A stretch of DNA of 64,000 bases from a virus. Taxonomy: Duplodnaviria; Caudoviricetes. The translations under genes were made by a program, and so were the position numbers. Location of the stretch: IMG/VR virus record IMGVR_UViG_3300031555_001696. One strand, 5' to 3'. The notes under the pieces are model-generated. The model was not told the origin of the DNA, did not search any database, and saw only the letters and a program-made list of their open reading frames with translations. Below, piece after piece: positions 42,704 through 62,518 of the stretch (positions are counted from its first letter, which is position 1; every line of letters begins with the position of its first letter).

Positions 42704-43231
42704 ATGAATTTAACGAAAGTAAGTAAATATCTGGCTTTAATTCTACGTCACAAGCCGGAAACTATTGGAATTACTCTAGATAAAAATGGTTGGGCCAATG
42801 TAAAGGATCTCATCAAAGGCGTAAATAAAACTTACAAGTTGGACATAGCTATGCTAGAGGAAATTGTTGCAACAGATGATAAGCAACGATATTCTTTCAA
42901 TGAAGACAAGACATTAATTCGTGCAAATCAGGGACATTCCGTGGACGTTGATGTTGAGCTAGAAGAGGCAGTACCTCCAGAATATCTGTGGCATGGTACA
43001 GGAACAAAGTACGTAGAGAGTATCAGAAAGACTGGTCTTATCCCTAATTCTAGGCTATACGTACATATGTCGGAGAGTTATATGACTGCAATGGATACTG
43101 GTGCCAGACATGGCAAACCTATGGTATTTTGCGTGAAAGCGGAAGATATGTATAACGATGGTTATAAGTTTTATAAGTCTAAGAATGATGTTTGGCTTAC
43201 AAAATTTGTACCAGTAGAGTATTTGGGTTGA
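42704..43231 (+). CDS. kptA: RNA 2'-phosphotransferase (Tpt1/KptA)
   Basis: SKYLALILRHKP, DKQRY, IRANQGHS, HGT and RLYVHMS motifs. Confidence 0.93.
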   Translation: MNLTKVSKYLALILRHKPETIGITLDKNGWANVKDLIKGVNKTYKLDIAMLEEIVATDDKQRYSFNEDKTLIRANQGHSVDVDVELEEAVPPEYLWHGTGTKYVESIRKTGLIPNSRLYVHMSESYMTAMDTGARHGKPMVFCVKAEDMYNDGYKFYKSKNDVWLTKFVPVEYLG

Positions 43232-43514: not shown

Positions 43515-44076
43515 TATATTAAAAGTTTAATTTTATGAGGTGACATATGCATTTAAGGTTTGTTGGAAAAGATAAATCAATGGGATTGTCTCGTGGTAGA
43601 GTGTATGATGTACGAATAAAAACAACAAATAACAATATTTGGGTTATAATTCCAAATATTCTTTTTGGTGCGTGGAAATGCCCGTATTCGTCTCCGCAAA
43701 GTTTTGCAGCAAATTGGGAGTCGGTATAAAAGATTAATTTTTAAGTAGGTGAAAGTAATGGAAAATACTTGTGTATGTTGTGGAGAAATCATTCCAGAGG
43801 GCATGCAGGTGTGCCATGCGTGTATGAGTGAAACTCCTATAGTTCCGCAGAGGCCGTATATGCAGTTTAATTGCCCGGAATGTGGAGCAAAACTGGAAGT
43901 ATGGTGCGATGCACTTGAGGATGAAACACCCGCAAAATTTGATAGTTTTTCATACGAGAAGCGGTATCTGATCAGACATTGTCGCAGTTGTGGATGTGAC
44001 TGGGAAAACGAGTGGTGGACTGAATGGGGCGATGTTGGCGAGTCGCAGTTGAGAAGAAAGTTTTGTGGATAAGAAG

Positions 44077-44895
44077 ATGAGTGATAAGTATACTTTATTT
44101 GCGTGTTCTGATATCCATAGTGCATATACACCGTGGATGAAAGCACTAAACGCAGCAGGATTTGATGAAAATAATCCTAAACATAAAATCGTAGTATGCG
44201 GAGATTTGTTTGACAGAATGGACGAATCCCTGCGGGTATATGATTTTGTTGAGGATATGTTGAAAAAGAATAAATTAATTTATATTTTAGGCAATCACGA
44301 AAGTCTGATGACAGAGTGTATTGAACGTGGTTATCCTGCTAGACACGATTGGAGTAATGGTACGGCAAAGTCTATCATTGACCTAGCTCCGCATGCAGAG
44401 AGTTTTTATGATGCATGTCATGTTGTATATGATAAAGTTACGCCTTTGTTTGAAAAAGCTGTAAATTATTTTGAAACTAAAAATTATATTTTTGTACACG
44501 GATGGATTCCGCTGACTTGTAAAGATAATTTACCTTATTATTATACTAGAAATAGAAAGTTTGAGTTTAATCCAGATTGGCGTCATGCACATTTCTCCGA
44601 ATGGGAACAAGCTCGTTGGCTAAATGGTATGGATATGGCGAGTAAAGGCTTGGTTGAACCTGGGAAGACTATAATTTGCGGACATTGGCATTGTAGTTAT
44701 GGACACTATATGCAAGCTATGAGAGACGCTATCGCTGCGGGAAATAGTGCTTTTGACGTTGAGATGGATGAATTTGGCGATACTGCAATTTGGGATCCTT
44801 ATTACGATGATGGTATTATTGCCATCGACAAGTGTGTAGCTTATACAAATGAAATCAATGTATTAAGGTTAGAAGACGAATTTTTGGAGGAATAA
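44077..44895 (+). CDS. Calcineurin-like metallophosphoesterase
   Basis: SDIHS, CGDLFDR, GNHE, FVHG and GHWH motifs. Confidence 0.9.
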   Translation: MSDKYTLFACSDIHSAYTPWMKALNAAGFDENNPKHKIVVCGDLFDRMDESLRVYDFVEDMLKKNKLIYILGNHESLMTECIERGYPARHDWSNGTAKSIIDLAPHAESFYDACHVVYDKVTPLFEKAVNYFETKNYIFVHGWIPLTCKDNLPYYYTRNRKFEFNPDWRHAHFSEWEQARWLNGMDMASKGLVEPGKTIICGHWHCSYGHYMQAMRDAIAAGNSAFDVEMDEFGDTAIWDPYYDDGIIAIDKCVAYTNEINVLRLEDEFLEE

Positions 44896-45050
44896 TGAAA
44901 AAGCTATCTATAGAAGAAAGAGTAGAATTTTTACGATGGAATGGGTTTAATCCTATACATTTATGGGGTAATATATATCTTGTTCGATATTGGTCTAAAA
45001 GAATCTCAGACTGGCCATTTTATACGATTAAAATTTTCAAGGAATAGGGC

Positions 45051-45079
45051 TTGACAAATCAAAAAAGATGTGATATAAT
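45051..45079 (+). promoter_or_regulatory. SigA-type promoter (near-identical copies at 45450, 45527, 45939, 48547, 49206, 51787, 54111, 59636)
   Basis: TTGACA-N16/17-TATAAT, usually with an extended -10 TG. Confidence 0.8.
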
Positions 45080-45583
45080 ACGGCCAGTTCAAAAGAACAA
45101 AACAAAATTAATTAAAGAGGTAAAGATTATGAGTTATTTTGCAATCGAATCCAATCAGAAGTGTTATGAGCATGTGTTGATCAAGGACAATAACGGCAAT
45201 GCCGTGTTTAAGAACTATTTAGACATGACGTACGATGAAATGAAGGATCAAGAGGATCTTGAGGAGTTTGTAGTTGCTGTTATGGAAGCTGCTAGTGAAG
45301 AAGGCGCACAGACTATTGTAACTCTTATTGGTGACGATGATGTGTTTATTTGGAGCATTATCATCGGTATGGATGGCGAGGATCTGAGATACGTACTGGT
45401 GGATTGGAAAAAGGACGGCAAGAGTTATAGATATGAGCCCGAAGGGGACTTGACAAATTAAGGAAAATATGATATAATACCGACAGTTCAGTTGAGAGCC
45501 ATTCAATCGTGAGATTAAGAAGGGGCTTGACAAATTGGAAAAGATGTGGTATAATACAAACACATTAAACGATACAAAATTAA

Positions 45584-45961
45584 TTGAAAGGAACAAGAAA
45601 GATGATTAAGTATTTTGTAAACGAAGAGAAGCGGCAGGTTATCGGTCTACTAGAAAACACCAGGTGGGATGCAGTTAGAAAGATTAACAAGATGATTGCT
45701 GATACCGATTTTTGTTTCTGTCCTAGTGAGAAATATTGGATGCCTAACGAGTACCGAGTGGTAGTTCAGTGCGATGACCGAGACGAGTTTAATCCCGAAG
45801 TTGGCAAGAAGATTGCGAAGCAGCGAATTCTAGATCGGTATTATCCGGCACTAGATAAGCGGGTCAACAAGTTTTTTGATGCTGCACTAGTGTTCAATGG
45901 CAAGGTATTTAAGACTCCTGCGGAGCTCAAAGAAGCACTTGACAAATTAAAAGTTTTGTGA
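45584..45961 (+). CDS. Hypothetical protein
   Basis: 125-aa ORF with CDDRDEFNPEVGKKIA motif, downstream of tandem promoters. Confidence 0.7.
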   Translation: MKGTRKMIKYFVNEEKRQVIGLLENTRWDAVRKINKMIADTDFCFCPSEKYWMPNEYRVVVQCDDRDEFNPEVGKKIAKQRILDRYYPALDKRVNKFFDAALVFNGKVFKTPAELKEALDKLKVL

Positions 45962-46051
45962 TATAATCCTAACAGTTCAAAATTAATGGAAGGCAACAAT
46001 GTTTGAGGGTTGCTGATGTCGGCTGGTGAGGTTCTGGTTGGCAAAGAATAA

Positions 46052-46126
46052 GGGCCCATAGCTCAAAGGAAGAGCTCCCGGCTCATAACCGGGTGGTTGC
46101 AATGTCAGGATTTGCTGGGCCCACCA
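46052..46126 (+). tRNA. tRNA-Ile2/Met (CAT), atypical T-loop
   Basis: GGGCCCA/TGGGCCC acceptor; CCCGG-CTCATAA-CCGGG anticodon arm; ACCA end. Confidence 0.75.
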
Positions 46127-46130
46127 CCAT

Positions 46131-46207
46131 GGCAACATAGTTTACGCTGGATAAAACATAGCCGTCCGAAGGCTAGAAAGATGGATCGTCACCATCTGTT
46201 GTCACCA
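46131..46207 (+). tRNA. tRNA-Arg (CCG), atypical T-loop
   Basis: GGCAACA/TGTTGTC acceptor; TAGCC-GTCCGAA-GGCTA; ACCA end. Confidence 0.75.
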
Positions 46208-46211
46208 ATTC

Positions 46212-46338
46212 GACCCGCTAGCTCAGTTGGTTCAGAGCACCGCCCTTTTGTCAGATGCAGGTTAGCTTCACTCAGTCCGATTCTGAGATCTGGTGCCAAA
46301 GGCGGGTGTCCTGGGTTCGAATCCCAGGCGGGTCACCA
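46212..46338 (+). tRNA. tRNA-Lys (TTT) interrupted by a 49-nt tRNA-like insert (46250-46298)
   Basis: Removing the insert gives a canonical 78-nt cloverleaf with CCGCC-CTTTTAA-GGCGG, TTCGAAT T-loop and ACCA end. Confidence 0.8.
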
Positions 46339-46430
46339 CTAAATTATTTGACAAAAGATGACTGCATATTAGAAACAACAAAATACAATAACATATCGCA
46401 TCATCGCAGATTTATCGCGAAGGTGATTAT

Positions 46431-47192
46431 GTGATTGGTATTTATAAAATTGAAAATTTGATAAATGGTAAAGTTTATATTGGTCAGTCAAGAAACATTG
46501 AAAAGAGGTGGACGGCTCATCGAACTAGACCATTTAATCAGAACTCAAAACAATATGATTTAGCGCTATATCGTTCTATTAGAAAATATGGGCTTGAAAA
46601 TTTTAGCTTTGTAGTTTTGGAAGAAACATTAATCGAAGATTTAGATAATAGAGAAAAATATTGGATTGAATATTATGACTCTCACAACAAAGAAAAAGGA
46701 TACAATTTGACGGATGGTGGTAACTCTGCAACGTCTACAATATTGACCAAAAAACAGGTTGATGAAATTAAACTTCTACTTGAAACAGATATGTCACAAC
46801 AAGATATTGCAGATAAATATAATGTTGATCAAAGGTCTATCAGTTATATAAATACAGGTGAAACTTGGATAGATCAGGGAAGAACATATCCTATTCGGTC
46901 ATTTTCAATATTGGCAAGCAACAAAAAATATTATTGTCAAAATTGCGGCAAAGAAATTGTAACAAAAAACGCTACTTTATGTGTTGACTGTTACAGTGCT
47001 TCTAGAAGAAAAGTTGATCGTGCTAGTCGAGATGAATTGAAACATTTAGTAAGAACAACATCATTTTTACAAATAGGAAAGATATACGGAATTTCAGATA
47101 CTGTAATTCGTAAGTGGTGCAGATCATATGGAATTCCATATAAACATAAAGAAATTAAATCTTATTCTGATGAAGAGTGGGATGAAATTTAA
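46431..47192 (+). CDS. GIY-YIG homing endonuclease in the tRNA cluster
   Basis: IGIYKIENLINGKVYIGQS...R...E...GYNLTDGG, followed by HTH and Zn-finger segments. Confidence 0.9.
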   Translation: MIGIYKIENLINGKVYIGQSRNIEKRWTAHRTRPFNQNSKQYDLALYRSIRKYGLENFSFVVLEETLIEDLDNREKYWIEYYDSHNKEKGYNLTDGGNSATSTILTKKQVDEIKLLLETDMSQQDIADKYNVDQRSISYINTGETWIDQGRTYPIRSFSILASNKKYYCQNCGKEIVTKNATLCVDCYSASRRKVDRASRDELKHLVRTTSFLQIGKIYGISDTVIRKWCRSYGIPYKHKEIKSYSDEEWDEI

Positions 47193-47247
47193 AAAACATA
47201 AATGTCATGCTTGGGCTTATTGCCGACTGAAAAATACAATCCTATAT

Positions 47248-47401
47248 ATCCCAGTAGCTCAGTCGAATAGAGCAACTGCCTTCGTCAACTTGGAGGAAAT
47301 GGAAACTCACTATCGCTAAGTAGATAGAGATTATTGGTTCAAGTCCAATAGTTGGCACCATAAGCAGTAGGTCACAGGTTTGAGTCCTGTCTGGGATACC
47401 A
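47248..47401 (+). tRNA. tRNA-Arg (TCT) interrupted by a complete nested 77-nt tRNA-like gene (47284-47360)
   Basis: Removing the insert gives a 77-nt cloverleaf: ATCCCAG/CTGGGAT acceptor, ACTGC-CTTCTAA-GCAGT anticodon arm, ACCA end. Confidence 0.82.
47284..47360 (+). tRNA. Nested tRNA-like element with an 8-nt anticodon loop (GCTAAGTA)
   Basis: GTCAACT/AGTTGGC acceptor, GAG/CTC D-stem, CTATC/GATAG anticodon stem, ATTGG-TTCAAGT-CCAAT T-arm, ACCA end. Confidence 0.75.
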
Positions 47402-47406
47402 AATAT

Positions 47407-47484
47407 GGCCCATTAGACAAGTTGGCTACAGTCACCAGCCCTTCACGCTGGAATTCGAGAGTTCGAATCTCTCATGGGTCACCA
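47407..47484 (+). tRNA. tRNA-Glu (TTC)
   Basis: GGCCCAT/ATGGGTC acceptor; CCAGC-CCTTCAC-GCTGG; TTCGAAT T-loop; ACCA end. Confidence 0.88.
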
Positions 47485-47709
47485 AATTCCAGACGACCGG
47501 AAAATCGGATGCCGGCATCTAACGATGTATGAGTGGAGTAATTCGTCACTCCTGGAATAATTAATTAAATTGCATTGATATGGGTGCCACGAAGCTCAAT
47601 AAGACGCCCTAAGAAAGGCGCAACGAGTTCCTGTGTATGGTAGTATTTACCGAACAGAGAAGCTGTGGTAAATGGAGTGAAATGAACAGCCCATATCCGC
47701 AATATATAT

Positions 47710-47785
47710 GCCGTAGTAGCTCAATTGGTAGAGTACGAGTTTTCCAAACTTGGGGTTGCGGGACCATGCCCCGTCTACGGCTCCA
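47710..47785 (+). tRNA. tRNA-Gly (TCC), atypical T-loop
   Basis: GCCGTAG/CTACGGC acceptor; CGAGT-TTTCCAA-ACTTG; TCCA end. Confidence 0.82.
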
Positions 47786-47829
47786 AATAGATTCCGGTCT
47801 ATTAATCTACGAAACGGAGGACTTTGCCT

Positions 47830-47877
47830 ATGATTGTCTGCAGCAAATCTAACAAGGAGGATAATCCTCCCGCTTAG
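47830..47877 (+). CDS. 15-aa micro-ORF MIVCSKSNKEDNPPA
   Basis: GGAGG RBS at 47816-47820; paralog at 50401. Confidence 0.5.
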   Translation: MIVCSKSNKEDNPPA

Positions 47878-47919
47878 TAGTGGGTTTGGCCGTTCCCGGT
47901 AAAAACGGCCAGTAAATAT

Positions 47920-48030
47920 GAAGCAGTATCCAAGTGACCAAAGGAGCCCAACCGGTAAGCTGGGTGCGTATAACGGTTATCCTAGGTAGTATGTGCGCTT
48001 CGCAGGTTTGAATCCTGTCCTGCTTCACCA
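47920..48030 (+). tRNA. Atypical Tyr-like tRNA with an irregular anticodon arm and an enlarged variable arm
   Basis: GAAGCAG/CTGCTTC acceptor, CCAAAGG D-loop, GTA in the loop, GCAGG-TTTGAAT-CCTGT T-arm, ACCA end; 111 nt. Confidence 0.55.
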
Positions 48031-48039
48031 AGTAAATAT

Positions 48040-48134
48040 GGCGAGATACCGAAGTGGTCATAACGGCCTGGCCTTGAAAGCCTGTGTGTCGGCTTCGATC
48101 CGACTCGGGGGTTCGAATCCCTCTCTCGCCGCCA
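48040..48134 (+). tRNA. tRNA-Ser (TGA)
   Basis: GGCGAGA/TCTCGCC acceptor; CTTGAAA loop; long variable arm; GCCA end. Confidence 0.88.
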
Positions 48135-48302
48135 GCCCGTTAGGGACTTTTTGAACTGACTATAAATCTCACACAACGCTACCTGGGTGTCATACGGGTT
48201 GATTGAATAAAGGTGTTGTTTATGTTTGAGGTTAGCTACCTCCAGGCTTAGCAGTGCCGTGGGATTGGAAAAGTTGCGAACTACCAGTCATTAAACTGCT
48301 AA

Positions 48303-48531
48303 TATGTGGTGGCGGAATAGACAACTCAAAAGGTTGGTAAAACTGAACGAACAAAGATATTGATAAATGTCAGAGATTGTGTAAGTAATAGTAGACGCAC
48401 GAAGGGTATCGTGGAAATGCAAGGTTGCACGCCGAATCAAAGCTACCAGGAGTGAGGTATCGCCTGTAAGCTATAAGACTTATAGTGTAAAACCAGTATT
48501 TTCATGTGAGGTGCAAATCCTCACCCACATA
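48303..48531 (+). ncRNA. Expanded tRNA-like RNA (~230 nt)
   Basis: TATGTGG/CCACATA termini; Leu-type D-arm halves GGCGGAATAG and GTAGACGC; TGAGG-TGCAAAT-CCTCA T-arm; two large insertions. Confidence 0.55.
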
Positions 48532-48610
48532 ACAAAAAACGCCCTCTTGACAAAATGAGAATTGTATGATATAATACGCACAGTTCAAGAGAACCATACA
48601 AAATTAATAT

Positions 48611-48682
48611 TGGGGAGTCGTCAAGCGGTAAGACATAACACTTTGACTGTTACATTCGGGAGTTCGAATCTCTCCTCCCCAG
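48611..48682 (+). tRNA. tRNA-Gln (TTG), no encoded CCA
   Basis: TGGGGAG/CTCCCCA acceptor; TAACA-CTTTGAC-TGTTA; TTCGAAT T-loop. Confidence 0.9.
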
Positions 48683-48683
48683 C

Positions 48684-48740
48684 GTTCTACATATTCCAAG
48701 CCTCCACGTGGCGTAGAATGGGTAATGCTAATTGGAATAT
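48684..48740 (+). ncRNA. Minimal HDV-like (theta) self-cleaving ribozyme at the tRNA-Gln 3' end
   Basis: P1 GTTCTAC/GTAGAAT (G.U first pair), P2 ATATTCCAA/TTGGAATAT, P3 GCC/GGC, L3 TCCACGT, GG for P1.1, J4/2 GCTAA. Confidence 0.85.
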
Positions 48741-48750
48741 AATTTAATAT

Positions 48751-48829
48751 CGGGATGTAGGGGAAGAGGAACCCCGCTCGGTCTGGGCCCGAGACATTAC
48801 TGCGTCTTCGAGTGGCGTCATCCCGACCA
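48751..48829 (+). tRNA. tRNA-Pro (TGG)
   Basis: CGGGATG/CATCCCG acceptor; CTCGG-TCTGGGC-CCGAG; ACCA end. Confidence 0.8.
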
Positions 48830-48855
48830 TAAAAAATACAAAAAGGAGATTTAAT

Positions 48856-49196
48856 ATGTTTGACGAAAATGGTGATTTTGTTCTGAAGGTTAAATTTCAG
48901 GATACGTACAAGGCACTTGCAAACTATATCAACCATGGTCTTGGTATTAAACGTGATGATGTAGAAAGGTATCTTGAAGATTTTGCTCGTAAGGTTGTAA
49001 ATGAATATGATTTTTCCCTGTAGTTAAACGAGTAATAGATGAGAAGATGACGCAGGTATTTAGAGAAAAATATTCTTATTTGCCAGATAAAGGCTTGAAG
49101 TCTTATCTTGAAAAAGTCGTAAAGGATGAAATCTCTAGACAGGTATCTGAAACTGTAAAAGAACAAGTCAAAGTGGTTCTGAAAGAACAGCAATAA
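48856..49196 (+). pseudogene. Frameshifted hypothetical gene
   Basis: AAGGAG RBS; 55-codon ORF stops at 49023; the -1 frame continues coding-like from GATTTTTCCCTG to TAA at 49196. Confidence 0.5.
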
Positions 49197-49281
49197 AAAT
49201 ACCTCTTGACAAATCGAAAAATTTATGATATAATACAGACGCTTTAAAAGAAACAACACAAAATTAATGGAGGAATTAAAA

Positions 49282-49935
49282 ATGACTACTGAAAAGATGA
49301 CTGTACATCGCGCCCTGTCTGAACTCAAGGTAATTGATGATCGTATCTCTAAGGCGATCCGTGAAACCACCTATGTTTTAGCAGTTAAGCACTCTGCCGA
49401 AAAGATCAACGGCAAGACTGTTCAGAACTTCAAGGAAGATATGCGTAGCGGCTACCAGAAGGTTACCGATCTAATTGCTCGTCGTGATGCAATGAAGAGA
49501 GCGGTTGTGCTTTCCAACGCAACTACCAAGGTTACCATCGGTGGTAAGGAAATGACTGTGGCTGAAGCCATTGAACAACATAACCACGGAATGGAATTCA
49601 AGGCAGCTCTACTGCGCCAGATGAACTCTGCTTATGTTTCTGCTCAGAACGAACTGAACCGTAATGGTGGTGAGGCTCTGGAAAAGAAGGCAGAACAGTA
49701 TGTGCTAGCAGTGATTGCCGCACAACCCAAGGAATCTAAGATGTCTGTTGACAGCGATGTAATGAAGGCACTTCGCAAGACTTACATCGAGAACAATACT
49801 TATGATCTTGTAGATCCTATGGATATTGCAAAGGTCATTGAGGCTCTGGATGTTGAAATCAATGAGTTCAATGCAGAAGTTGACGCTGCACTAAGCTGCT
49901 CAAATGCACTAACTGTTATTGAGTTCGAGTATTAA
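49282..49935 (+). CDS. Helical/coiled-coil hypothetical protein upstream of a large ncRNA
   Basis: MTTEKMTVHRALSELKVIDDRI...EVDAALSCSNALTVIEF; own SigA promoter at 49206. Confidence 0.8.
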   Translation: MTTEKMTVHRALSELKVIDDRISKAIRETTYVLAVKHSAEKINGKTVQNFKEDMRSGYQKVTDLIARRDAMKRAVVLSNATTKVTIGGKEMTVAEAIEQHNHGMEFKAALLRQMNSAYVSAQNELNRNGGEALEKKAEQYVLAVIAAQPKESKMSVDSDVMKALRKTYIENNTYDLVDPMDIAKVIEALDVEINEFNAEVDAALSCSNALTVIEFEY

Positions 49936-49942
49936 GTAAACT

Positions 49943-50371
49943 AACTTGCTGCTTAACGAAAACTTTAAACGACTGCTTATCTCTTCTTTTTTAATCATTT
50001 AGAGTGATATTAATAAGGTAAAGAAAATGATTACTAATAGCCTTCAAGGCACAAGCCTGCTAAGCTTACTAAAAACAATGATCTTTTATGATGAGAAGAT
50101 TATTATTACAATACATAATATTATTGGATATGTATATTAATAATGAAATTGACTGTAAAGATTAACGTTAAAAGCTCAAGGTTTAAGGCTCAAGACTCAA
50201 GGTTTATTTTTAGTCAAAGGTCGTTCATTAAAGATATAAAGAGGGCTAAGAAATTTCGAATATTATTGTAATACGAATCGAGCCCACAAAGTTTTGCAAA
50301 ATCCACGATTATAGGTTTGGGTTAGTAGTCTAGGCCCTAAAGTTGACCTCGTGGCTGTTAAGTAGCAAGTT
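49943..50371 (+). ncRNA. Putative ~430-nt structured RNA with internal heptamer repeats
   Basis: 15-bp closing stem AACTTGCTGCTTAAC/GTTAAGTAGCAAGTT; seven tandem AANNNNN heptamers at 50157-50205; no ORF. Confidence 0.6.
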
Positions 50372-50400
50372 CGAAATAATCCAAAGGAGGATATTTGCTT

Positions 50401-50448
50401 ATGATTGTATTCGCTAAATCCAACTTGGAGGAAAATCCGCCCAACTAA
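50401..50448 (+). CDS. 15-aa micro-ORF MIVFAKSNLEENPPN
   Basis: GGAGG RBS at 50386-50390; paralog at 47830. Confidence 0.5.
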   Translation: MIVFAKSNLEENPPN

Positions 50449-50485
50449 GCGGCGTCCTGGGCATGACGTTACAACTGCCCAATAT

Positions 50486-50562
50486 TGCGGAGTGGAGCAG
50501 TTGGTAGCTCGTTAGCCTCATAAGCTAAAGGTCGTTGGTTCAAGTCCAACCTCTCGCAACCA
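50486..50562 (+). tRNA. tRNA-Met (CAT), initiator-like body
   Basis: TGCGGAG acceptor with a bulge; TTAGC-CTCATAA-GCTAA; TTCAAGT T-loop; ACCA end. Confidence 0.8.
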
Positions 50563-50565
50563 AAT

Positions 50566-50658
50566 GCCGGGGTATTCGAACTGGAACAGAAAACAGACTT
50601 AAAATCTGTCGGTGCGATCACATCAAGCTTGCGGGTCCGAATCCCGTCCCCGGTACCA
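50566..50658 (+). tRNA. tRNA-Leu (TAA)
   Basis: GCCGGGG/CCCCGGT acceptor; ACAGA-CTTAAAA-TCTGT; long variable arm; ACCA end. Confidence 0.85.
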
Positions 50659-50661
50659 TAT

Positions 50662-50745
50662 ACAGGTGTGCGTGGAATTGGTAGACAGGACGGTCTCAAA
50701 ATCCGTTGTTTATACGTGTGGGTTCAAGTCCCACCACCTGTACCA
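50662..50745 (+). tRNA. tRNA-Leu (CAA)
   Basis: ACAGGTG/CACCTGT acceptor; CTCAAAA loop; TTCAAGT T-loop; ACCA end. Confidence 0.82.
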
Positions 50746-50829
50746 CCTGAACAAATGGCATAGTGTTATGTGTGGCTGACCAACCTTAAGGTCATTAACA
50801 TTAACTTTTTAAAGGAGAAATTAAACAAA

Positions 50830-51105
50830 ATGGAATGGTTTAAGCACAAGAAGCCGGTTGATTTTATCGAATCTAAGATGTCTAAGCTACATGCTCTACA
50901 GGACGAATCTAATGACGCAATTGATCTTGTTAGTCGTACAATTAAGCGACTCGAACTTGCCAATCAGGAAACATTAAACACTATTAGCGAGATTGATGAT
51001 TATTGTTCAAGCCTACAAGATGTACGTGACAGTTTGAATAAAAATTATACTCACAATTCCGCTGTTATCTCTAATTTTTCTAAGCTCATTGAAGTAGAAA
51101 ATTAA
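50830..51105 (+). CDS. Small coiled-coil hypothetical protein
   Basis: ATG after the AAGGAG RBS; followed by a hairpin at ~51114. Confidence 0.65.
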   Translation: MEWFKHKKPVDFIESKMSKLHALQDESNDAIDLVSRTIKRLELANQETLNTISEIDDYCSSLQDVRDSLNKNYTHNSAVISNFSKLIEVEN

Positions 51106-51142
51106 ATTAAATATAGGGGTGTTAACTACGCCCCTAATCTAT

Positions 51143-51217
51143 GCTGGTATAGCTCAGCGGCAGAGCGACGGATTTGTAATCCGTAGGTCGGGATCTCGGA
51201 ATTCCCTACCAGCTCCA
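51143..51217 (+). tRNA. tRNA-Thr (TGT), atypical T-loop
   Basis: GCTGGTA/TACCAGC acceptor; ACGGA-TTTGTAA-TCCGT; TCCA end. Confidence 0.82.
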
Positions 51218-51848
51218 TCATTAAATAAAAGGCAGGTAACAAAAATGCATAACGAACAGATAGCAATTGAACGACAGAGCATGCAAGATGAAATTCTAAG
51301 ACTTAAAACTATGTTGCAGGACATGGAGACAGACTGGGCGGAATGTGCCAGAACAGGAAAATCTCAGTGTTTCTTCTGTGCTTATGACGACACTTGCGAT
51401 GGGCGAGATTGCAATTTTGTTTGGTTGCCAACACAACTAAGGAGGAAGTAATATGACTACTATCGAAGCACTAAAAGTACGCATTAACATTCTACAGAAT
51501 AGAGATCCTGTAACTAATGAAAAAATCATTCGGAAGCTGCGCAGACGAGTTCGTGCATTGGAGAAGACCAATGCGTGATCTAGAACATCCAGAGATTACA
51601 TGTGCTCTTCAGACGGGCTACCCATCATGGGCTCAACCCAAAGAATATAACTGTGAAAACTGCGGATGCGATTTATATCTTGATGAAATTTATGACGACT
51701 TACACCACGATTATTTGTGTGAAGAATGTCTATTGCAACTTCATCGTAAACGCCTGTGGGAGTAATCCTGCAGGCTATTTTTATACTTGACAAATTCAAA
51801 ATATATGCTATAATAACAATACAAAATTAATGTAAGGAGGTAATTCAA

Positions 51849-52334
51849 ATACAAACTTTATATCATTATATATATTTAGGACTAATTAAGGTAATTGACA
51901 ACATAGTTACTACGGAGAAATCCCTGTTAACGCACCAAAACAAAGCGCTCGCTGCATCAATTCTAGTGGCAGTTTCGCAGTTTCTCTTCTACGTTCTTAT
52001 CAAAGAGGTTGTAGCAGATAGTAATCTAATTTCTATGATAGTGGTATCAGTTGCGTCTGGCATTGGTAGTTATATTGCATTTGGTATCAACAACAAATTC
52101 TCAAAGGAAACCGTGTACATTAACATCGTTACATCTAACGATAAAAATCAGATGAAGAGTTTTGCTGATCATATGAGAGCGGAGGGCATTAAGGTGGTTA
52201 CAGTGCCTACTTATGGCGACGATATTGAAAGAACACTAACTGCTCTTATTTTTGCTAATACACGGTATCAGTCAAAAATGATTGACAAATATGTTGAAAA
52301 TCATGCAGAGCTTTTTAGGGAGGTAATAAATTAA
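51849..52334 (+). CDS. Membrane protein (DUF2179/DUF5698-like), probable ATA start
   Basis: Frame stays open upstream of the GTG at 51966 back to an ATA 8 nt after GGAGG; three hydrophobic helices plus a soluble C-terminal domain. Confidence 0.55.
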   Translation: MQTLYHYIYLGLIKVIDNIVTTEKSLLTHQNKALAASILVAVSQFLFYVLIKEVVADSNLISMIVVSVASGIGSYIAFGINNKFSKETVYINIVTSNDKNQMKSFADHMRAEGIKVVTVPTYGDDIERTLTALIFANTRYQSKMIDKYVENHAELFREVIN

Positions 52335-57307: not shown

Positions 57308-58420
57308 ATGTACAAGCTTGAATTAAGAGACTTTATTCTGTCTCACGATAATTGGGAAGAACTTTTAACTGCAGAACCATATTATCTTAAGATTTCTCGT
57401 GATGACGGGTATATCATGTTTAAATATAATCAGGTGTTTTCTGATTTTAATATTCCTCTAGTTCGTGAATCACGAGGAATTATTTTCAGAGAAAGCGATT
57501 GGAAGTGTGTGTCTTATCCGTTTCGAAAATTCGGAAATTATGGTGAGTCTTATTGCCCCGAAATCAACTGGGAAACTGCATCTGTTCAAGAAAAAGTCGA
57601 TGGGTCATTAATTAAATTTTGGTATGATAACGGATGGCATATTTCCACTAACGGCACAATTGATGCGTTTAAGGCTAATCTAAACGATGTTAAGTATGAA
57701 AACTTTGGACAACTTGTTGCTACTGCAATTCATAAAGTATTTGAAGATGAGCACGATTTTTTCAACATGCTTGACCCAAAATGTACATATATGTTTGAAC
57801 TAGTTTCTCCATACAACCGCATAGTTATCCCGTATGAGGAAGTTAAGCTATATTTCTTAGGAATTAGAGATATGAACGATGGAGAGGAATGGAATCCAGA
57901 AGAGTCTGACCTGTCTATGTTTTTCTCTATCCCTAAGCGTTATCCTCTACATTCTCTGGAAGGTGTACAAAAAGCAGCAAATGCGCTTTCTTGGGACGAG
58001 GAGGGTTATGTAGTTTGCGATGCAGATTTTAATAGAGTTAAAATTAAAAGCCCATCTTACGTAATGGCTCATTACGTGCGTAATAACAACACTATTAATA
58101 CTGAGCGGTTAGTACATATTGTTCTTGATGGAGAGCAAGAAGAATTTCTAATTTATGCTTCTGACTATGCTGATGAGCTTCGTAACGTCGAGGATATTAT
58201 GCATAATATTGCAAGCAAGTCAGTTGAAAGTATGAAGATAATATTCGGCGCATCTTATGAATTTGCTAATCGTGGAGAATATGCACGAGAGGTAATGAAA
58301 TATCCTGCATATATGAAAGACTTCCTATTCCGTTGTTTTGATGATAAGATTTTCTGGGATTATGCAAAGAGTTGGAGTATAGATAGATGGGTTAAAGCTA
58401 TTAATGAATTTAAGGGATAA
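57308..58420 (+). CDS. T4 Rnl1-like RNA ligase
   Basis: ESRGIIF, PFRKFGN, EKVDGSL (motif I), FEL, EGYV and RVKIKS motifs. Confidence 0.88.
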   Translation: MYKLELRDFILSHDNWEELLTAEPYYLKISRDDGYIMFKYNQVFSDFNIPLVRESRGIIFRESDWKCVSYPFRKFGNYGESYCPEINWETASVQEKVDGSLIKFWYDNGWHISTNGTIDAFKANLNDVKYENFGQLVATAIHKVFEDEHDFFNMLDPKCTYMFELVSPYNRIVIPYEEVKLYFLGIRDMNDGEEWNPEESDLSMFFSIPKRYPLHSLEGVQKAANALSWDEEGYVVCDADFNRVKIKSPSYVMAHYVRNNNTINTERLVHIVLDGEQEEFLIYASDYADELRNVEDIMHNIASKSVESMKIIFGASYEFANRGEYAREVMKYPAYMKDFLFRCFDDKIFWDYAKSWSIDRWVKAINEFKG

Positions 58421-58712: not shown

Positions 58713-59615
58713 ATGTATATCCCGAAGTTTATAATGATGGTAGGTTTGGTTGCGAGCGGCAAGTCTCATATGGCTCAAAAACTCGCTATCGAACACAATG
58801 CTACAATTTTTAGTTCGGATGAACTTCGAGAAGAAATGTTCAATAATGTCAACAACCAAGATCATAACCAAGAACTATTTGTAGAACTTCATAGGCGCAT
58901 CAAGGACTGTCTTCGTAGTGGTAAAAGTGCCATTATGGATTCTACAAACATTAACTACAAGCGTCGTATGGCATTCCTAGCTGAGCTTAAGAGCATTCCT
59001 TGTGAAAAGATTTGTGTGTTAATGGGAACTCCATATGAAGAATGTTTGAAGCGTAATGCTGAGCGTGAACGCAAAGTTCCAGAACATGTAATTTTAAGAA
59101 TGTATAGCAATTTTAACATTCCTTATTGGTATGAAGGTTGGGACGACATTAAAGTTGAATATGGTGTGTTTAAAGGTTATTATGGCAAACTAGCAAGTTG
59201 GTATAACAATTATAAAGATTATAATCAATACAATTCTCACCATACATTAACACTTGGAGAACATTGTTATAGGGCTGCATTAGAGTTAATTGGTAGCAAT
59301 TCTGTCACGTTAGTACGTGCAGCATGGATGCATGATAATGCGAAGCCAGAAACGGCAACATTTATCAACTCCAGGGGTGAGGTAACTACCGAATGTCATT
59401 ATTACAACCACCAATATGTTTCTGGATACAAGGCACTCCTATTTGATTATAGCAATCTATTGGATGTTGCGATTATTGTAATGTGGCATATGCAACCTTA
59501 TTTCTGGGAGAAAGATAATAATGAAAAGTTGCATAGTAAGTATCGTAAGTTATGGGGAGATAATTTGTATCAAGATATTATGCAACTCCATGCGGCGGAT
59601 AAATTGTGGCATTGA
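58713..59615 (+). CDS. Polynucleotide kinase (AAA_33) fused to an HD domain
   Basis: GLVASGKS, SSDELR, DSTN; C-terminal EHC..HDNAKP..HQYVS..HM..HAAD. Confidence 0.85.
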   Translation: MYIPKFIMMVGLVASGKSHMAQKLAIEHNATIFSSDELREEMFNNVNNQDHNQELFVELHRRIKDCLRSGKSAIMDSTNINYKRRMAFLAELKSIPCEKICVLMGTPYEECLKRNAERERKVPEHVILRMYSNFNIPYWYEGWDDIKVEYGVFKGYYGKLASWYNNYKDYNQYNSHHTLTLGEHCYRAALELIGSNSVTLVRAAWMHDNAKPETATFINSRGEVTTECHYYNHQYVSGYKALLFDYSNLLDVAIIVMWHMQPYFWEKDNNEKLHSKYRKLWGDNLYQDIMQLHAADKLWH

Positions 59616-60230: not shown

Positions 60231-61037
60231 ATGATTAAGTTAGATGGTAAAATAGTGCACCAAGAGCATTTTCCAGACAATTCGCTGAGAATTGAACCAA
60301 TCAATGACAATAGTTTCGATCTATCTTTTATGGGAATGACATCAATTCCTAAAAGAATTACTTGGCACTATGAAAGCGATGCTGAATTGTTCACTGTAAT
60401 TTGTCTAAGAAAGCATTTTGCAAATAAGGAAATGATTTTGGAAATGCCTTATTGTCCGCACGCTCGCATGGATCGAGTAAAGAACAACAATGAATTCTTT
60501 ACACTAAAGCATTTTGCAGACGTCATTAATAGTCTTGACTTCTCTGAGGTAAAAATTTATGATCCTCACAGCAATGTATGTACTGCGCTAATTAATAATG
60601 TAAAAGTAATACCTACATATAATGAGGTTCAAAAAGCTCTTAAGACAATTGGCTCAACCAATTTAGTTGCATTTTATCCTGATGAAGGGGCCATGAAGCG
60701 TGGCACTAGCTATTTGACTGGAGCATATGCGTTTGGTATTAAAAATCGTGATTGGCAGACCGGTAAGATTTTAGGACTAGAGCTAATAAATAAGGAAGTT
60801 GTAAATGCGAGAGATGTTTTGATTATTGATGATATCTGTTCTCGTGGAGGTACATTCCTACATTCTGCTAAGGCACTCAAAGAAGCCGGTGCCAGAAAAA
60901 TTTACCTGTACGTAACTCACTGCGAAAATACAATCCTGGATGGTGAGCTACTTACCAGCGGCCTAATTGAAAAGGTATACACAACAAATAGTATTTTTAC
61001 CAAAGGACATGAAATGATTGAGGTATTCGAACTATGA
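60231..61037 (+). CDS. Ribose-phosphate pyrophosphokinase-like protein (possible ADPR-PP synthase)
   Basis: MPYCPHARMDR, DPHS, PDEGAMKR, IIDDICSRGGTF and VTH motifs. Confidence 0.85.
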   Translation: MIKLDGKIVHQEHFPDNSLRIEPINDNSFDLSFMGMTSIPKRITWHYESDAELFTVICLRKHFANKEMILEMPYCPHARMDRVKNNNEFFTLKHFADVINSLDFSEVKIYDPHSNVCTALINNVKVIPTYNEVQKALKTIGSTNLVAFYPDEGAMKRGTSYLTGAYAFGIKNRDWQTGKILGLELINKEVVNARDVLIIDDICSRGGTFLHSAKALKEAGARKIYLYVTHCENTILDGELLTSGLIEKVYTTNSIFTKGHEMIEVFEL

Positions 61038-62518
61038 CAATTAATATTATGATGATGCTTTTTTCGGATACATATAAGCACACTCATCCTCGTATGTATC
61101 CTCGTAAAGAACCATTTAAAATGAAGAAGCTAGTTTCTTATTTAACAGCACGTAAGAATATGTCCCCTGCATTTCCTACAATGGTATTTGTTGGTATGCA
61201 GCCATTTCTAATGAATTATCTTATTGATGGTTTCAACAATCAATTCTTTGATCGGCCTTTGTGTGATGTAGAAGCAGAATATAAGCATTACATGGACATC
61301 CAGGTTGGTGTTGCTAATGTTGAGTGGGATGAAATTGCAGCACTACACGAACTTGGCTATTTGCCTCTTGAGATTCGTGCTTTACCTGAGGGCTCTGTGG
61401 TAAACATGGGTATTCCTGTGGTTGAAATGACTAATACTCATCCCGATTTCGCATGGGTTGTTCAGTGGGTTGAATGTATTTTGCAGGCTGAACTGTGGGC
61501 TCCCTGTGCATACGCAACTATCGGCAAGGCGTATCATGAGCTAGCTGATAAGTACTATAAGGATACCACAGATGGCGCTGACCCCTTCATGGCCATGGCA
61601 GACTTCGGTATGCGTGGCATGTCTTGTATCGAGGATTCTATTCGAGCATCTGCATCGTGGCTGCTAAGTTTCAACAAAACTTCCACTATTCCCGCTCTGC
61701 CGTATATTGATAAATATTATCATGCTGATTGTGCAAAAAATGGTATTGGACGTGGCGCTGTCTCTACGGAACATTCTGTCATGGGTGCCAACTTCGCTAT
61801 CGATGGCGATGAGATCACTTTCGTCAAGAGACTACTAACCGAACTCTATCCTAATACATCTTTCTCTATGGTATCCGATACATACGACTACTGGAATATG
61901 GTCAACAATATTATTCCTGCTTGTAAGGATGAAATCATGGCACATAATGGTAAACTGTTAATTAGACCCGACTCTGGTGATATGCTCACTATTTCTATTC
62001 GTACCATTGAGAAGCTGTGGGAAGTATTTGGAGGCAGTATTAATGCTAAAGGCTATAAGGAACTTGATCCTCATATTGGCCTGATTTATGGTGACGGTTG
62101 TACATTGAACCGTGTAGCTGATATTTATCGAACTCTTAAGGAACGTGGCTTTGCAGCGAATAATGTCGTGTTTGGCGTTGGAGCCTTCTGTTTCCATGCC
62201 ATGTTTGATGTTGGCGGCAAAATGACCGTTATTACACGTGATACTTTTGGTATGGCGATGAAGGCTACATACGGTGAATTTGGTGACAAGAAGTTGTTTA
62301 TCTATAAGGATCCAAAGACCGACGAAGGTAATCTAAAGAAAAGTCATAAGGGATGTTGTATGGTTAGAATGGACAACAAAAACGGTAGATATTTGTGTAT
62401 GGACAAATTCGAAGGTTGGGTTCCTGATCATATGACAGCCCTGGAGACGGTCTTTAAGGATGGTAAGATGATTAAGAGCTATGACTTTATGGACATTCGG
62501 AGGAGAATGTATGGTTAA
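61034..62518 (+). CDS. NAMPT/NadV-family phosphoribosyltransferase (possible Namat)
   Basis: SDTYKHTH, DFGMRG, STEHSVM, SDTYD, IRPDSGD, IYGDG and KDPKTD motifs. Confidence 0.9.
   Translation: MTINIMMMLFSDTYKHTHPRMYPRKEPFKMKKLVSYLTARKNMSPAFPTMVFVGMQPFLMNYLIDGFNNQFFDRPLCDVEAEYKHYMDIQVGVANVEWDEIAALHELGYLPLEIRALPEGSVVNMGIPVVEMTNTHPDFAWVVQWVECILQAELWAPCAYATIGKAYHELADKYYKDTTDGADPFMAMADFGMRGMSCIEDSIRASASWLLSFNKTSTIPALPYIDKYYHADCAKNGIGRGAVSTEHSVMGANFAIDGDEITFVKRLLTELYPNTSFSMVSDTYDYWNMVNNIIPACKDEIMAHNGKLLIRPDSGDMLTISIRTIEKLWEVFGGSINAKGYKELDPHIGLIYGDGCTLNRVADIYRTLKERGFAANNVVFGVGAFCFHAMFDVGGKMTVITRDTFGMAMKATYGEFGDKKLFIYKDPKTDEGNLKKSHKGCCMVRMDNKNGRYLCMDKFEGWVPDHMTALETVFKDGKMIKSYDFMDIRRRMYG

What the first reader, a model, noticed from the sequence alone, without database searches (positions are those of the whole stretch)
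46212..46338. Second interrupted tRNA: Lys(UUU) with a 49-nt minimal tRNA mimic ending in CCA
Seen: insert 46250-46298 folds into an acceptor stem (GTCAGAT/ATCTGGT), a T-arm (CTCAG-TCCGATT-CTGAG) and G-CCA, with only a 14-nt linker in place of the D and anticodon arms. It sits between positions 36 and 37, and removal gives CTTTTAA. It keeps just the top-half features RNase P recognises, and it is a second case with a different sequence, which argues against accident. Knowledge: tRNA-Lys(UUU) is the target of PrrC and of PARIS/AriB. Inference: same splicing strategy as the Arg gene, with a streamlined intron.
Basis: partly seen in the sequence, partly recalled or inferred. Interest (0 to 1): 0.85.

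Follow-up and report, generated by a model that had tools for sequence, protein, structure and literature searches.

The report
tRNA-shaped mini-intron in phage tRNA-Lys
A lysine tRNA gene of a large gut phage is split inside its anticodon loop by a 49-base insert shaped like the top half of a tRNA; this barely described type of phage intron is probably cut out by ordinary tRNA-trimming enzymes and resealed by an RNA ligase, but that has not been shown.

Summary
Window 46212-46338 is a tRNA gene (Rfam tRNA 53.9 bits) that carries a 49-nt insert at 46250-46298. Removing exactly those bases gives a normal tRNA-Lys(UUU) with discriminator A73.

The insert has a 7-bp acceptor stem, a 14-nt linker, a 5-bp T stem with a 7-nt loop, then G-CCA. 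Its fold alone is no better than shuffled sequence. The support is comparative:
- Two homologous 48-nt inserts in related phages keep every pair, and 5 of 12 pairs show compensatory changes.
- A blind scan of 200 sources found about 28 nested cases. Each runs from base +1 to a 3' NCCA (two end in CAA).
- They sit at 34/35, 35/36 or 36/37 of Ile, Lys, Leu, Gln, Glu and Arg tRNAs, all with U34.
- A spliced-in-silico tRNA-Leu is 100% identical to the uninterrupted gene of sister phages.
- Each related phage checked but one has one copy per anticodon, interrupted or not. The exception keeps both, and its interrupted copy is decayed.

Splicing itself is unproven, because no RNA data were available. 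An ATP-dependent RNA ligase is always present (Rnl1 here, DRB0094-type in relatives). Tpt1, the reverse transcriptase, RtcB and a splicing endonuclease do not track the inserts.

Devoto et al. 2019 noted such "enigmatic" introns in Lak megaphages. This scan has also found the class on other DNA. I class it as a new variant of a barely described kind.

The parts
45939..45967 (+). Sigma-70-type promoter (TTGACA, 17 nt, TG-TATAAT) upstream of the tightly packed tRNA trio 46052-46338
   Evidence: 12 of 12 consensus matches with an extended -10. Function is inferred.
46212..46249 (+). Exon 1 of tRNA-Lys(UUU): acceptor 5' strand, D arm, anticodon stem 5' strand, loop C32 U33 U34 U35 U36
   Evidence: Rfam tRNA 53.9 bits over 46212-46335. 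Spliced in silico it is called tRNA-Lys(ttt).
46250..46298 (+). 49-nt tRNA-shaped insert (minihelix intron). Acceptor 5' strand 46250-46256, linker 46257-46270, T stem 46271-46275 and 46283-46287, T loop 46276-46282, acceptor 3' strand 46288-46294, discriminator G 46295, CCA 46296-46298.
   Evidence: 7/7 acceptor and 5/5 T-stem pairs. Only hit of a strict minihelix scan of the window. Covariation with homologues L003:19653-19700 and L049:21408-21455. Model R1 scores it at 55.7 bits.
46299..46338 (+). Exon 2 of tRNA-Lys(UUU): A37 A38, anticodon stem 3' strand, variable loop, T arm with TTCGAAT loop, acceptor 3' strand, A73, encoded CCA
   Evidence: outer acceptor 7/7, T stem 5/5. Contigs of uninterrupted tRNA-Lys(UUU) from other organisms align from exactly 46299.
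46431..47192 (+). Free-standing GIY-YIG homing endonuclease gene lying between the two interrupted tRNA genes. Context only; a possible driver of spread or retention.
   Evidence: Pfam GIY-YIG 8.2e-09. NCBIfam TIGR01453 group I intron endonuclease, 86.8 bits against a cut-off of 56.
47248..47401 (+). Second nested case: tRNA-Arg(UCU) with a 77-nt full tRNA-shaped insert (47284-47360) between positions 35 and 36
   Evidence: Rfam tRNA 50.4 bits. Insert has 7/7 and 5/5 pairs and ends A-CCA. Spliced in silico it is called tRNA-Arg(tct).
57308..58420 (+). T4 Rnl1-type RNA ligase, the candidate sealing enzyme in this phage
   Evidence: PDB 2C5U 3.8e-18. phrog_562 2.7e-51. TIGR02308 4.6e-21, below its cut-off.
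58713..59615 (+). Polynucleotide kinase (P-loop, N-terminal half). RNA-repair context; not needed if both cuts are hydrolytic.
   Evidence: Pfam AAA_33 2e-23. phrog_505 polynucleotide kinase 1.4e-20.

Best explanation
The gene encodes a functional tRNA-Lys(UUU) whose precursor carries a 49-nt intervening sequence between U36 and A37. The insert is a reduced tRNA. It keeps the acceptor/T-arm minihelix, the discriminator and CCA, and lacks the D and anticodon arms.

The splice sites are set by the insert's own tRNA-like ends, not by the host tRNA.
- RNase P cuts 5' of insert base G+1. This leaves exon 1 with a 3'-OH after U36.
- An endonuclease of the tRNA 3'-end pathway cuts right after CCA. 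An RNase Z that cuts after CCA, as described for Thermotoga maritima, is the model. This leaves exon 2 with a 5'-phosphate.
- The two exons stay held together by the outer cloverleaf. An ATP-dependent RNA ligase seals the nick in the anticodon loop. Here that is the phage's T4 Rnl1-type enzyme; in relatives it is a DRB0094-type ligase.

Shown: the gene architecture, the conservation and covariation of the insert, the exactness of the boundaries in relatives, and the presence of a ligase. Inferred: every enzymatic step, and that splicing happens at all.
For: Architecture:
- The insert has 7/7 acceptor pairs, 5/5 T-stem pairs, G53-C61 and G-CCA.
- It is the only such element in the window.
- The homologous Gln inserts keep 100% of pairs, with 5 of 12 pairs compensatory.

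Generality of the rule 'insert = +1 to NCCA':
- All 16 distinct inserts in the window and relatives obey it. The positions differ: 34/35, 35/36 or 36/37.
- All 19 genes spliced in silico are called as normal tRNAs.
- A blind scan of 4491 top-half-like segments in 200 sources recovers only such cases.
- Variable position with fixed insert ends points to recognition of the insert.

Exact boundaries:
- Spliced Leu(UAA) of L004 and L069 is 86/86 identical to the uninterrupted genes L075:19956 and L049:18752. Gln 35/36 is 95-96% identical to its uninterrupted counterparts.

The host genes look functional:
- Outer acceptor 7/7 and T stem 5/5 in 18 of 19 genes, with compensatory differences between phages.
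- One copy per anticodon per phage, interrupted or not.
- The one redundant interrupted copy (L049 Gln) has a damaged acceptor stem.

Fit to RNase P:
- The base before the insert is U in all classes except the window's Arg, where it is C.
- U at -1 and CCA pairing with the P15 loop are known RNase P determinants, and minihelices are known substrates (established knowledge: McClain, Guerrier-Takada and Altman 1987).

Ligase:
- Rnl1 in the window.
- A DRB0094-type RNA ligase next to a kinase-HD protein in five relatives.
Against: - No RNA evidence. No RNA run holds the sequence.
- The insert's fold is not thermodynamically distinctive, and the MFE is another fold.
- No orthologue of this very Lys gene, with or without the insert, was found. 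Its boundaries rest on analogy plus the Lys identity evidence.
- The enzyme that would cut after CCA is unknown. In Bacillus subtilis, RNase Z is inhibited by CCA (established knowledge).
- Two relatives' inserts end in CAA, not CCA.
- The T loops of many inserts (TCCGATT here, GGCAGNA elsewhere) are non-canonical.
- RNA ligase and kinase modules are common in large phages for repair, so their presence is weak support.
- Rnl1 itself is absent from six relatives that carry nested tRNAs.
Confidence: 0.5

Rival explanations
1. [quoted passage not shown] These are healed by the phage kinase and phosphoesterases and sealed by Rnl1. Tpt1 then removes a junction 2'-phosphate, as in yeast-type tRNA splicing.
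For: The window encodes Tpt1/KptA (42704-43231, 5.5e-47), a polynucleotide kinase, two metallophosphoesterases and Rnl1. Tpt1's only well-understood role is in fungal and plant tRNA splicing (PMC6097658 abstract).
Against: Tpt1 is absent from five relatives with nested tRNAs, two of them complete genomes. No splicing endonuclease domain (PF01974) or RtcB was found in them. There is no bulge-helix-bulge motif. This model does not explain why every insert keeps a tRNA acceptor/T-arm and NCCA. KptA in phages is already explained as RNA repair (PMC7824862).
Confidence: 0.15
2. The gene is not spliced. The insert is a selfish or accidental insertion that inactivated the tRNA. Either nothing useful is made, or only the excised minihelix and tRNA halves are made, possibly as decoys.
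For: There is no RNA evidence of splicing. Hosts supply tRNA-Lys anyway. One interrupted gene in a relative (L049 Gln) is visibly decaying. A homing endonuclease gene lies next to the insert.
Against: Exons keep perfect cloverleaf pairing and canonical T loops in 18 of 19 interrupted genes, with compensatory changes across phages at 58-78% polymerase identity. The interrupted gene is the only copy of its anticodon in each phage checked except L049, whose redundant copy is the decayed one. Insert boundaries always restore a 7-nt loop.
Confidence: 0.15
3. The boundaries are shifted and the product is not tRNA-Lys. Removing 46247-46295 gives anticodon CCA (Trp). Intermediate shifts give UCA or UUA (suppressor-like).
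For: ARAGORN intron mode reports Trp(cca) with a 49-nt intron. Any insert ending in CCA and followed by AA allows this reading.
Against: The shifted rule fails in relatives. L001 Ile 34/35, for example, would get a 9-nt loop (as read from the sequences). The discriminator is A73, which fits Lys; Trp has G73 in E. coli (established knowledge). The nearest annotated phage tRNAs are mostly tRNA-Lys and none is Trp. Uninterrupted tRNA-Lys contigs align from exactly 46299. The shifted insert would lose its 7-bp terminal stem.
Confidence: 0.03
4. A DNA-level rationale, compatible with splicing. The insert persists because it breaks the target site of a homing endonuclease that cuts uninterrupted tRNA anticodon-loop DNA. 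It spreads together with the neighbouring free-standing GIY-YIG gene (collaborative homing).
For: A GIY-YIG endonuclease gene of the group I intron type lies 93 nt after the Lys gene and 56 nt before the Arg gene. L001 has a GIY-YIG gene about 175 nt upstream of its interrupted Lys, and L005 has an HNH gene upstream of its interrupted Ile. There is clean presence/absence polymorphism among sister phages.
Against: Several nested tRNAs in relatives have no endonuclease gene next to them. Endonuclease genes are common in phage tRNA clusters anyway. No target site was tested.
Confidence: 0.15

Closest known systems
'Enigmatic' introns in tRNA genes of Lak megaphages (Devoto et al. 2019, Nat Microbiol, PMC6784885; read)
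   Same: Phage tRNA genes interrupted by short inserts. One intron, in tRNA-Thr(UGU), 'itself may encode a tRNA'. Alleles with and without the intron exist among related phages. No Rfam class and no mechanism.
   Different: Those are roughly 540-550-kb Prevotella megaphages. This is a phage with a DNA polymerase III alpha gene whose relatives have genomes of roughly 150-170 kb. Here the insert is reduced to a 49-nt minihelix without D or anticodon arms. That paper gave no rule for the boundaries, no covariation analysis and no candidate enzymes.
Archaeal and eukaryal tRNA introns (bulge-helix-bulge motif, EndA/TSEN endonuclease, RtcB or Trl1+Tpt1 ligation)
   Same: A short, non-self-splicing intervening sequence in the anticodon loop that needs protein enzymes and a ligase.
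   Different: No bulge-helix-bulge motif. The position is 36/37 (34/35 and 35/36 in relatives), not 37/38. No EndA-type gene in relatives. The insert is itself tRNA-shaped with CCA.
Group I introns in bacterial tRNA anticodon loops (for example cyanobacterial tRNA-Leu(UAA), inserted at 34/35)
   Same: Bacterial-world tRNA genes interrupted inside the anticodon, sometimes with homing endonucleases and patchy distribution.
   Different: 49 nt is far too short for a group I core, and no group I or II model matched.
tRNA-like small RNAs released from longer transcripts by RNase P and RNase Z (mascRNA from MALAT1; the mitochondrial 'tRNA punctuation' model)
   Same: A tRNA-shaped element inside a longer RNA that marks both cut sites for tRNA end-processing enzymes.
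   Different: In those systems the flanks are not joined again. Here the flanks are the two halves of another tRNA and must be ligated.
T4 tRNA-Lys repair (PrrC cut, Pnkp healing, Rnl1 sealing)
   Same: Sealing of a break in the anticodon loop of tRNA-Lys(UUU) by a phage Rnl1-type ligase. This phage has Rnl1 and a kinase.
   Different: In T4 the break is made by a host defence nuclease in a mature tRNA. Here the break would be programmed by the gene's own insert.

Membership tests
tRNA gene (Rfam RF00005), outer gene | Covariance-model score above the gathering threshold | tested here: met
   53.9 bits against 29 over 46212-46335, with the insert tolerated as an insertion.
tRNA gene (Rfam RF00005), outer gene | Canonical cloverleaf with a 7-nt anticodon loop once the insert is removed | tested here: met
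   Default ARAGORN calls a 78-nt tRNA-Lys(ttt). Acceptor 7/7, T stem 5/5, TTCGAAT loop, ACCA tail.
tRNA-Lys identity | UUU anticodon and A73 discriminator (E. coli LysRS identity set, established knowledge) | tested here: met
   The loop is CTTTTAA after removal and the discriminator is A. The best annotated phage matches are mostly tRNA-Lys at 82-85% identity.
tRNA-shaped introns of large phages (Devoto 2019 'enigmatic introns') | Insert inside the anticodon loop of an otherwise intact phage tRNA gene | tested here: met
tRNA-shaped introns of large phages (Devoto 2019 'enigmatic introns') | Insert is itself tRNA-like from its first base to a 3' NCCA | tested here: met
   7/7 acceptor and 5/5 T-stem pairs, then G-CCA. 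Covariation. It lacks D and anticodon arms, so it is a reduced form.
tRNA-shaped introns of large phages (Devoto 2019 'enigmatic introns') | Clean presence/absence polymorphism against uninterrupted orthologues | tested here: inconclusive
   Met for Leu and Gln in relatives (100% and 95-96% identity). No orthologue of this Lys gene was found.
tRNA-shaped introns of large phages (Devoto 2019 'enigmatic introns') | Removal at the RNA level | not testable with these tools
   No RNA run holds the sequence.
Archaeal/eukaryal BHB tRNA intron | Bulge-helix-bulge motif at the exon-intron junctions | tested here: not met
   In the fold of 46212-46338 the junctions lie at the base of a helix. The unpaired stretches are in the opposite arrangement to a BHB.
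Archaeal/eukaryal BHB tRNA intron | Splicing endonuclease (EndA, PF01974) available | tested here: not met
   0 of 5 related phage genomes, while the archaeal controls are positive. The host genome is unknown.
Group I intron in a tRNA | Catalytic core of a few hundred nucleotides that matches Intron_gpI | tested here: not met
   The insert is 49 nt. No intron family appears among the Rfam matches for 44000-52000 at E up to 1.
RNase P minihelix substrate | 12-bp acceptor/T-stem stack, 7-nt T loop, 3' NCCA, pyrimidine at -1 | tested here: met
   Base -1 is U36.
RNase P minihelix substrate | Actual cleavage by RNase P at U36|G | not testable with these tools
   Needs an enzyme assay or 5'-end mapping.
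T4-type tRNA repair module as the sealing machinery | An Rnl1 ligase that co-occurs with nested tRNAs | tested here: not met
   Rnl1 is present in the window, G005 and G007. It is absent from six relatives with nested tRNAs. Five of those carry a DRB0094-type RNA ligase instead.

The most novel reading that the evidence does not exclude
These inserts are a further class of intron whose splice sites are defined by tRNA end-processing (RNase P at +1, a cut after CCA), with ligation by an RNA-repair ligase.

They may also have arisen at the RNA level. A mature tRNA has a 5'-phosphate and a CCA-3'OH. A repair ligase could have sealed one by mistake into an anticodon loop opened by an anticodon nuclease, and the chimera was then copied back into DNA. 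That would explain three things: every insert runs exactly from +1 to CCA, the sites lie inside the anticodon, and all hosts in this clade are U34 tRNAs, which are typical nuclease targets.

The unspliced precursor might also serve as a nuclease-proof reserve of tRNA-Lys.
Probability: 0.12. Interest if true: 0.9.

Novelty: new variant of a known kind. Interest (0 to 1): 0.7.

Why it matters
Bacteria and their phages are thought to interrupt tRNA genes only with self-splicing introns. If these inserts are removed by RNase P, a 3'-end nuclease and an RNA ligase, that would be a splicing route not shown for any tRNA. It would also give RNA-repair ligases in phages a housekeeping role, and it would make an old idea directly testable: that the top half of tRNA acts as a processing tag. 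On the practical side, standard tRNA finders miss or mislabel these genes. Here the calls were 'no gene', 'Trp' and 'Met', so phage tRNA inventories and codon-usage inferences are biased. The interrupted tRNAs (Lys, Gln, Glu, Leu, Ile and Arg with U34) overlap the usual targets of anticodon nucleases, so there may be a link to phage-host conflict.

Tried and rejected
- RNA evidence: no RNA holder was listed for 45900-48900. Only DNA contigs could be laid. They showed no insert-less allele of this phage and no variation inside the insert. Cover was patchy.
- Orthologues of this Lys gene: none found. Tried an exact 26-nt 5'-exon pattern in IMG/VR, blastn-short of the spliced, insert and full forms against 79 related loci, and two metagenome scans with exon 2 and the insert T arm. 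Blastn of 45500-47500 against GenBank phages gave no match.
- Model R1, built from three family members, found no further minihelix copies. Its only extra hit led to a new nested tRNA-Glu in L080.
- MAFFT misaligned the 5' ends of inserts from different families. Pair statistics for the whole set were therefore computed by position from the two ends in a script.
- Energy-based support for the insert fold is rejected (z +0.72).
- Readings rejected: Trp(CCA) and suppressor anticodons, bulge-helix-bulge intron, group I intron (see the rivals and the membership test).
- Links rejected as general requirements: Tpt1 (0 of 5 relatives), the reverse transcriptase at 14423-15685 (1 of 5), RtcB (0 of 5), Rnl1 itself.
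- Similarity of the spliced gene to relatives' tRNAs did not separate Lys from Glu (0.74-0.76).
- Literature: ten full-text searches found no description of tRNA-shaped introns or of a mechanism. The 2026 jumbo-phage review mentions introns only in passing.

Full report
**What is in the sequence.** The window is part of a large tailed phage. It encodes a DNA polymerase III alpha subunit, RecJ, a DnaB-like helicase and NAD-salvage genes. Its polymerase is 77-78% identical to that of nine IMG/VR phage genomes of about 150-170 kb. DNA runs that hold it are animal faecal metagenomes.

A tRNA cluster spans 46052-51214. A perfect sigma-70-type promoter lies at 45939-45967. Behind it come three tightly packed tRNA genes, and the third is the finding.

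The Rfam tRNA model covers 46212-46335 at 53.9 bits and treats 49 nt in the anticodon loop as an insertion. Default ARAGORN misses the gene.

The sequence reads as follows:
- exon 1 (46212-46249) ends ...CCGCC-CTTTT
- the insert (46250-46298) is GTCAGAT, 14 nt, CTCAG-TCCGATT-CTGAG, ATCTGGT, G, CCA
- exon 2 (46299-46338) begins AA-GGCGG...

Removing the insert gives a 78-nt gene that default ARAGORN calls tRNA-Lys(UUU). Its outer acceptor stem pairs 7/7 and its T stem 5/5. It has a TTCGAAT loop and an ACCA tail.

**Is it more than chance?** By folding energy alone it is not. The 49-mer folds at -9.6 kcal/mol, no better than shuffles (z +0.72), and its minimum-energy fold is a different one. Two other tests support it.
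- A strict scan asked for 7/7 terminal pairs, 5/5 T-stem pairs, a linker of 8-25 nt and CCA. It finds exactly one element in the 64-kb window, this insert. Shuffled windows give 0.15 on average. The insert also sits at the one place where its removal restores a tRNA.
- The insert has homologues. L003/L069 (19653-19700) and L049 (21408-21455) carry 48-nt inserts with the same GTCA...TGG acceptor frame. Across the three sequences every pair is kept. Five of 12 pairs change on both sides. Slid controls pair only 22-53%.

**Which tRNA?** ARAGORN in intron mode slides the 49 nt three bases left and reports Trp(CCA). Intermediate shifts would give UCA or UUA. Four lines favour Lys(UUU):
- Only the rule 'insert = +1 to CCA' works in all relatives (next section).
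- The discriminator is A73, as in tRNA-Lys (E. coli identity rules, my knowledge).
- The spliced sequence matches phage genes annotated tRNA-Lys best (82-85% identity; none is Trp).
- In metagenome contigs, uninterrupted tRNA-Lys(UUU) genes of other organisms align to exon 2 from exactly 46299. The bases before that point read ...CCCTTTT.

**The wider family.** Related phages carry many such genes. I measured each insert from its two ends. All 16 distinct inserts have 6-7 of 7 acceptor pairs and 5 of 5 T-stem pairs. The G53-C61 pair never varies. The other positions show three to five pair types each. Then come a discriminator and CCA, or CAA in one pair of phages.

Some inserts are full cloverleaves. 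Three of them have a CUA anticodon and so look like amber suppressors. Others have odd 8-nt loops. The rest are 47-56-nt minihelices.

A blind scan tested 4491 top-half-like segments in 200 sources. A segment was kept only if its removal gave an ARAGORN-callable tRNA with the junction in the anticodon loop. This returned about 28 nested cases and nothing else. A further one, tRNA-Glu(UUC) in L080, came from the covariance model.

The hosts are Ile(UAU), Lys(UUU), Leu(UAA), Gln(UUG), Glu(UUC) and Arg(UCU). All have U34, while only 53% of the uninterrupted tRNAs in these phages do. The rough probability of this is 0.003-0.012. Earlier notes of this scan report other hosts elsewhere, so this may be local to the clade.

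The insert position varies (34/35, 35/36, 36/37), but the insert's own ends never do. The base before the insert is U in every class except the window's Arg, where it is C.

**Evidence that the interrupted genes work.**
- Exact boundaries. The Leu(UAA) genes of L004 and L069, spliced in silico, are 86/86 identical to the uninterrupted Leu(UAA) of L075 and L049. Gln 35/36 is 95-96% identical to uninterrupted Gln genes.
- Intact exons. 18 of 19 interrupted genes keep perfect outer stems, with compensatory differences between phages.
- Complementary distribution. Each phage has one gene per anticodon, interrupted or not. The window has no other Lys(UUU) or Arg(UCU). L003 has no other Gln or Ile. 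L001 has no other Lys or Ile.
- The exception fits. L049 has both an uninterrupted and an interrupted Gln, and its interrupted copy has a damaged acceptor stem.

These points argue that the insert must come out of the RNA.

**How it most likely works (inferred).** What every insert keeps is what tRNA end-processing reads: the 12-bp acceptor/T stack, a 7-nt T loop, the discriminator and CCA. D and anticodon arms are dispensable. At the Gln 35/36 site an 85-nt form and a 49-nt form share acceptor and linker motifs, which suggests reduction over time.
- RNase P would cut before +1. This leaves a 3'-OH on exon 1.
- A cut after CCA would leave a 5'-phosphate on exon 2. RNase Z of Thermotoga maritima does this, whereas the Bacillus subtilis enzyme is blocked by CCA (my knowledge).
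- The nick, held in the outer cloverleaf, is the preferred substrate of T4 Rnl1. The window encodes an Rnl1 homologue at 57308-58420 (PDB 2C5U 3.8e-18; phrog_562).

**What the neighbouring genes do and do not say.** I confirmed Tpt1 (42704-43231), the kinase (58713-59615), two phosphoesterases and Rnl1. They do not track the inserts.
- Tpt1 is absent from five relatives with nested tRNAs.
- RtcB and an EndA-type endonuclease are absent too.
- The reverse transcriptase at 14423-15685 is in one of five.
- Rnl1 is missing from six. Five of those carry a 480-500-aa DRB0094-type RNA ligase beside a kinase-HD protein (phrog_968 2.2e-63; TIGR02306 and PF09414 weak).

So 'some ATP-dependent RNA ligase' is the only constant. 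Such ligases are common in large phages for repair (PMC7824862).

A GIY-YIG homing endonuclease gene of the group I intron type lies between the two interrupted genes. L001 and L005 also have endonuclease genes near nested tRNAs, but other cases do not. A role in spread or retention is possible and untested.

**Comparison with what is known.**
- It is not a group I intron: it is 49 nt and has no Rfam intron match.
- It is not a bulge-helix-bulge intron: wrong junction geometry, wrong position and no endonuclease.
- The closest published precedent is in Devoto et al. 2019. They noted 'enigmatic introns' in Lak megaphage tRNAs, one of which 'itself may encode a tRNA'. They showed alleles with and without the intron but gave no mechanism (PMC6784885).
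- My ten full-text searches found nothing on mechanism. The library lacks most subscription journals.
- Earlier notes of this scan report the same class in many other phage genomes. So this is not a first sighting within the scan.
- What this case adds is the set of tests above: a minihelix form in tRNA-Lys of a non-Lak phage, the covariation, the exact presence/absence, the complementary distribution, and the ligase, Tpt1 and reverse-transcriptase checks.

**Verdict.** I class it as a new variant of a barely described kind. Interest is high because a simple experiment could establish a new tRNA splicing route.

Noticed in passing
window 48684-48739: HDV-like (theta-type) ribozyme match directly after tRNA-Gln(UUG) 48611-48683, the only tRNA here without an encoded CCA. 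27.9 bits, below the gathering score of 44. Fits the theta ribozymes described for gut phages (PMC10879173).
   Followed up: partly
window 49945-50033: Weak match to RAGATH-27 RNA (47.9 bits against a gathering score of 76.1, E 0.0003) just after the ORF 49267-49935, inside the tRNA cluster.
   Followed up: no
window 47284-47360: The inner tRNA-shaped insert of tRNA-Arg has an 8-nt anticodon loop (GCTAAGTA). ARAGORN gives it a 2-base anticodon. Homologous inserts in L005, L069 and L075 have a normal loop with anticodon CUA, so they look like amber suppressors.
   Followed up: partly
window 46052-46123 and 46131-46207: The two tRNAs before the finding score low (49.1 and 38 bits) and have unusual T arms. 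The first (anticodon CAT) is missed by ARAGORN. The second is called Arg(CCG).
   Followed up: no
window 42704-43231, 60231-63714: Tpt1/KptA (which uses NAD+) lies in the same window as an NAD-salvage set: a PRPP-synthetase-like gene, NAPRTase/NAMPT and NAD synthase. Tpt1 is absent from five close relatives.
   Followed up: partly
window 14423-15685 and 15775-16330: Reverse transcriptase with its best but sub-threshold match to group II intron RTs. It is followed by four diverged 44-nt repeats spaced about 170 nt apart. No template/variable-repeat pair typical of a diversity-generating retroelement was seen. Present in one of five relatives.
   Followed up: partly
L001:16724-16843 with L001:17020-18642 (also L002, L003, L004, L007, L049, L069, L075): A conserved tRNA-like element whose anticodon arm is replaced by about 40 nt, with no CCA. 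In several relatives it lies next to a 530-540-aa DUF2828/DUF7788 protein. It could be a tRNA-mimicking partner RNA of that protein. Not tested.
   Followed up: no
L080-L192 (IMG/VR loci): The unusual T arm GTAGG-GGCAGNA-CCTAC is not special to inserts. It occurs in many free-standing full-length tRNA genes of unrelated phages, often with a D loop that lacks GG. This suggests a phage-specific variant of the tRNA elbow.
   Followed up: partly
L003:19456 and L069:21064: ARAGORN reports a tRNA with a four-base anticodon (tttt) in two relatives. Possibly an 8-nt anticodon loop.
   Followed up: no
L080:3366-3442: A further nested case in a more distant phage: tRNA-Glu(UUC) with a 77-nt tRNA-shaped insert at 36/37. 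It lies about 450 nt after a nested tRNA-Leu(UAA).
   Followed up: yes
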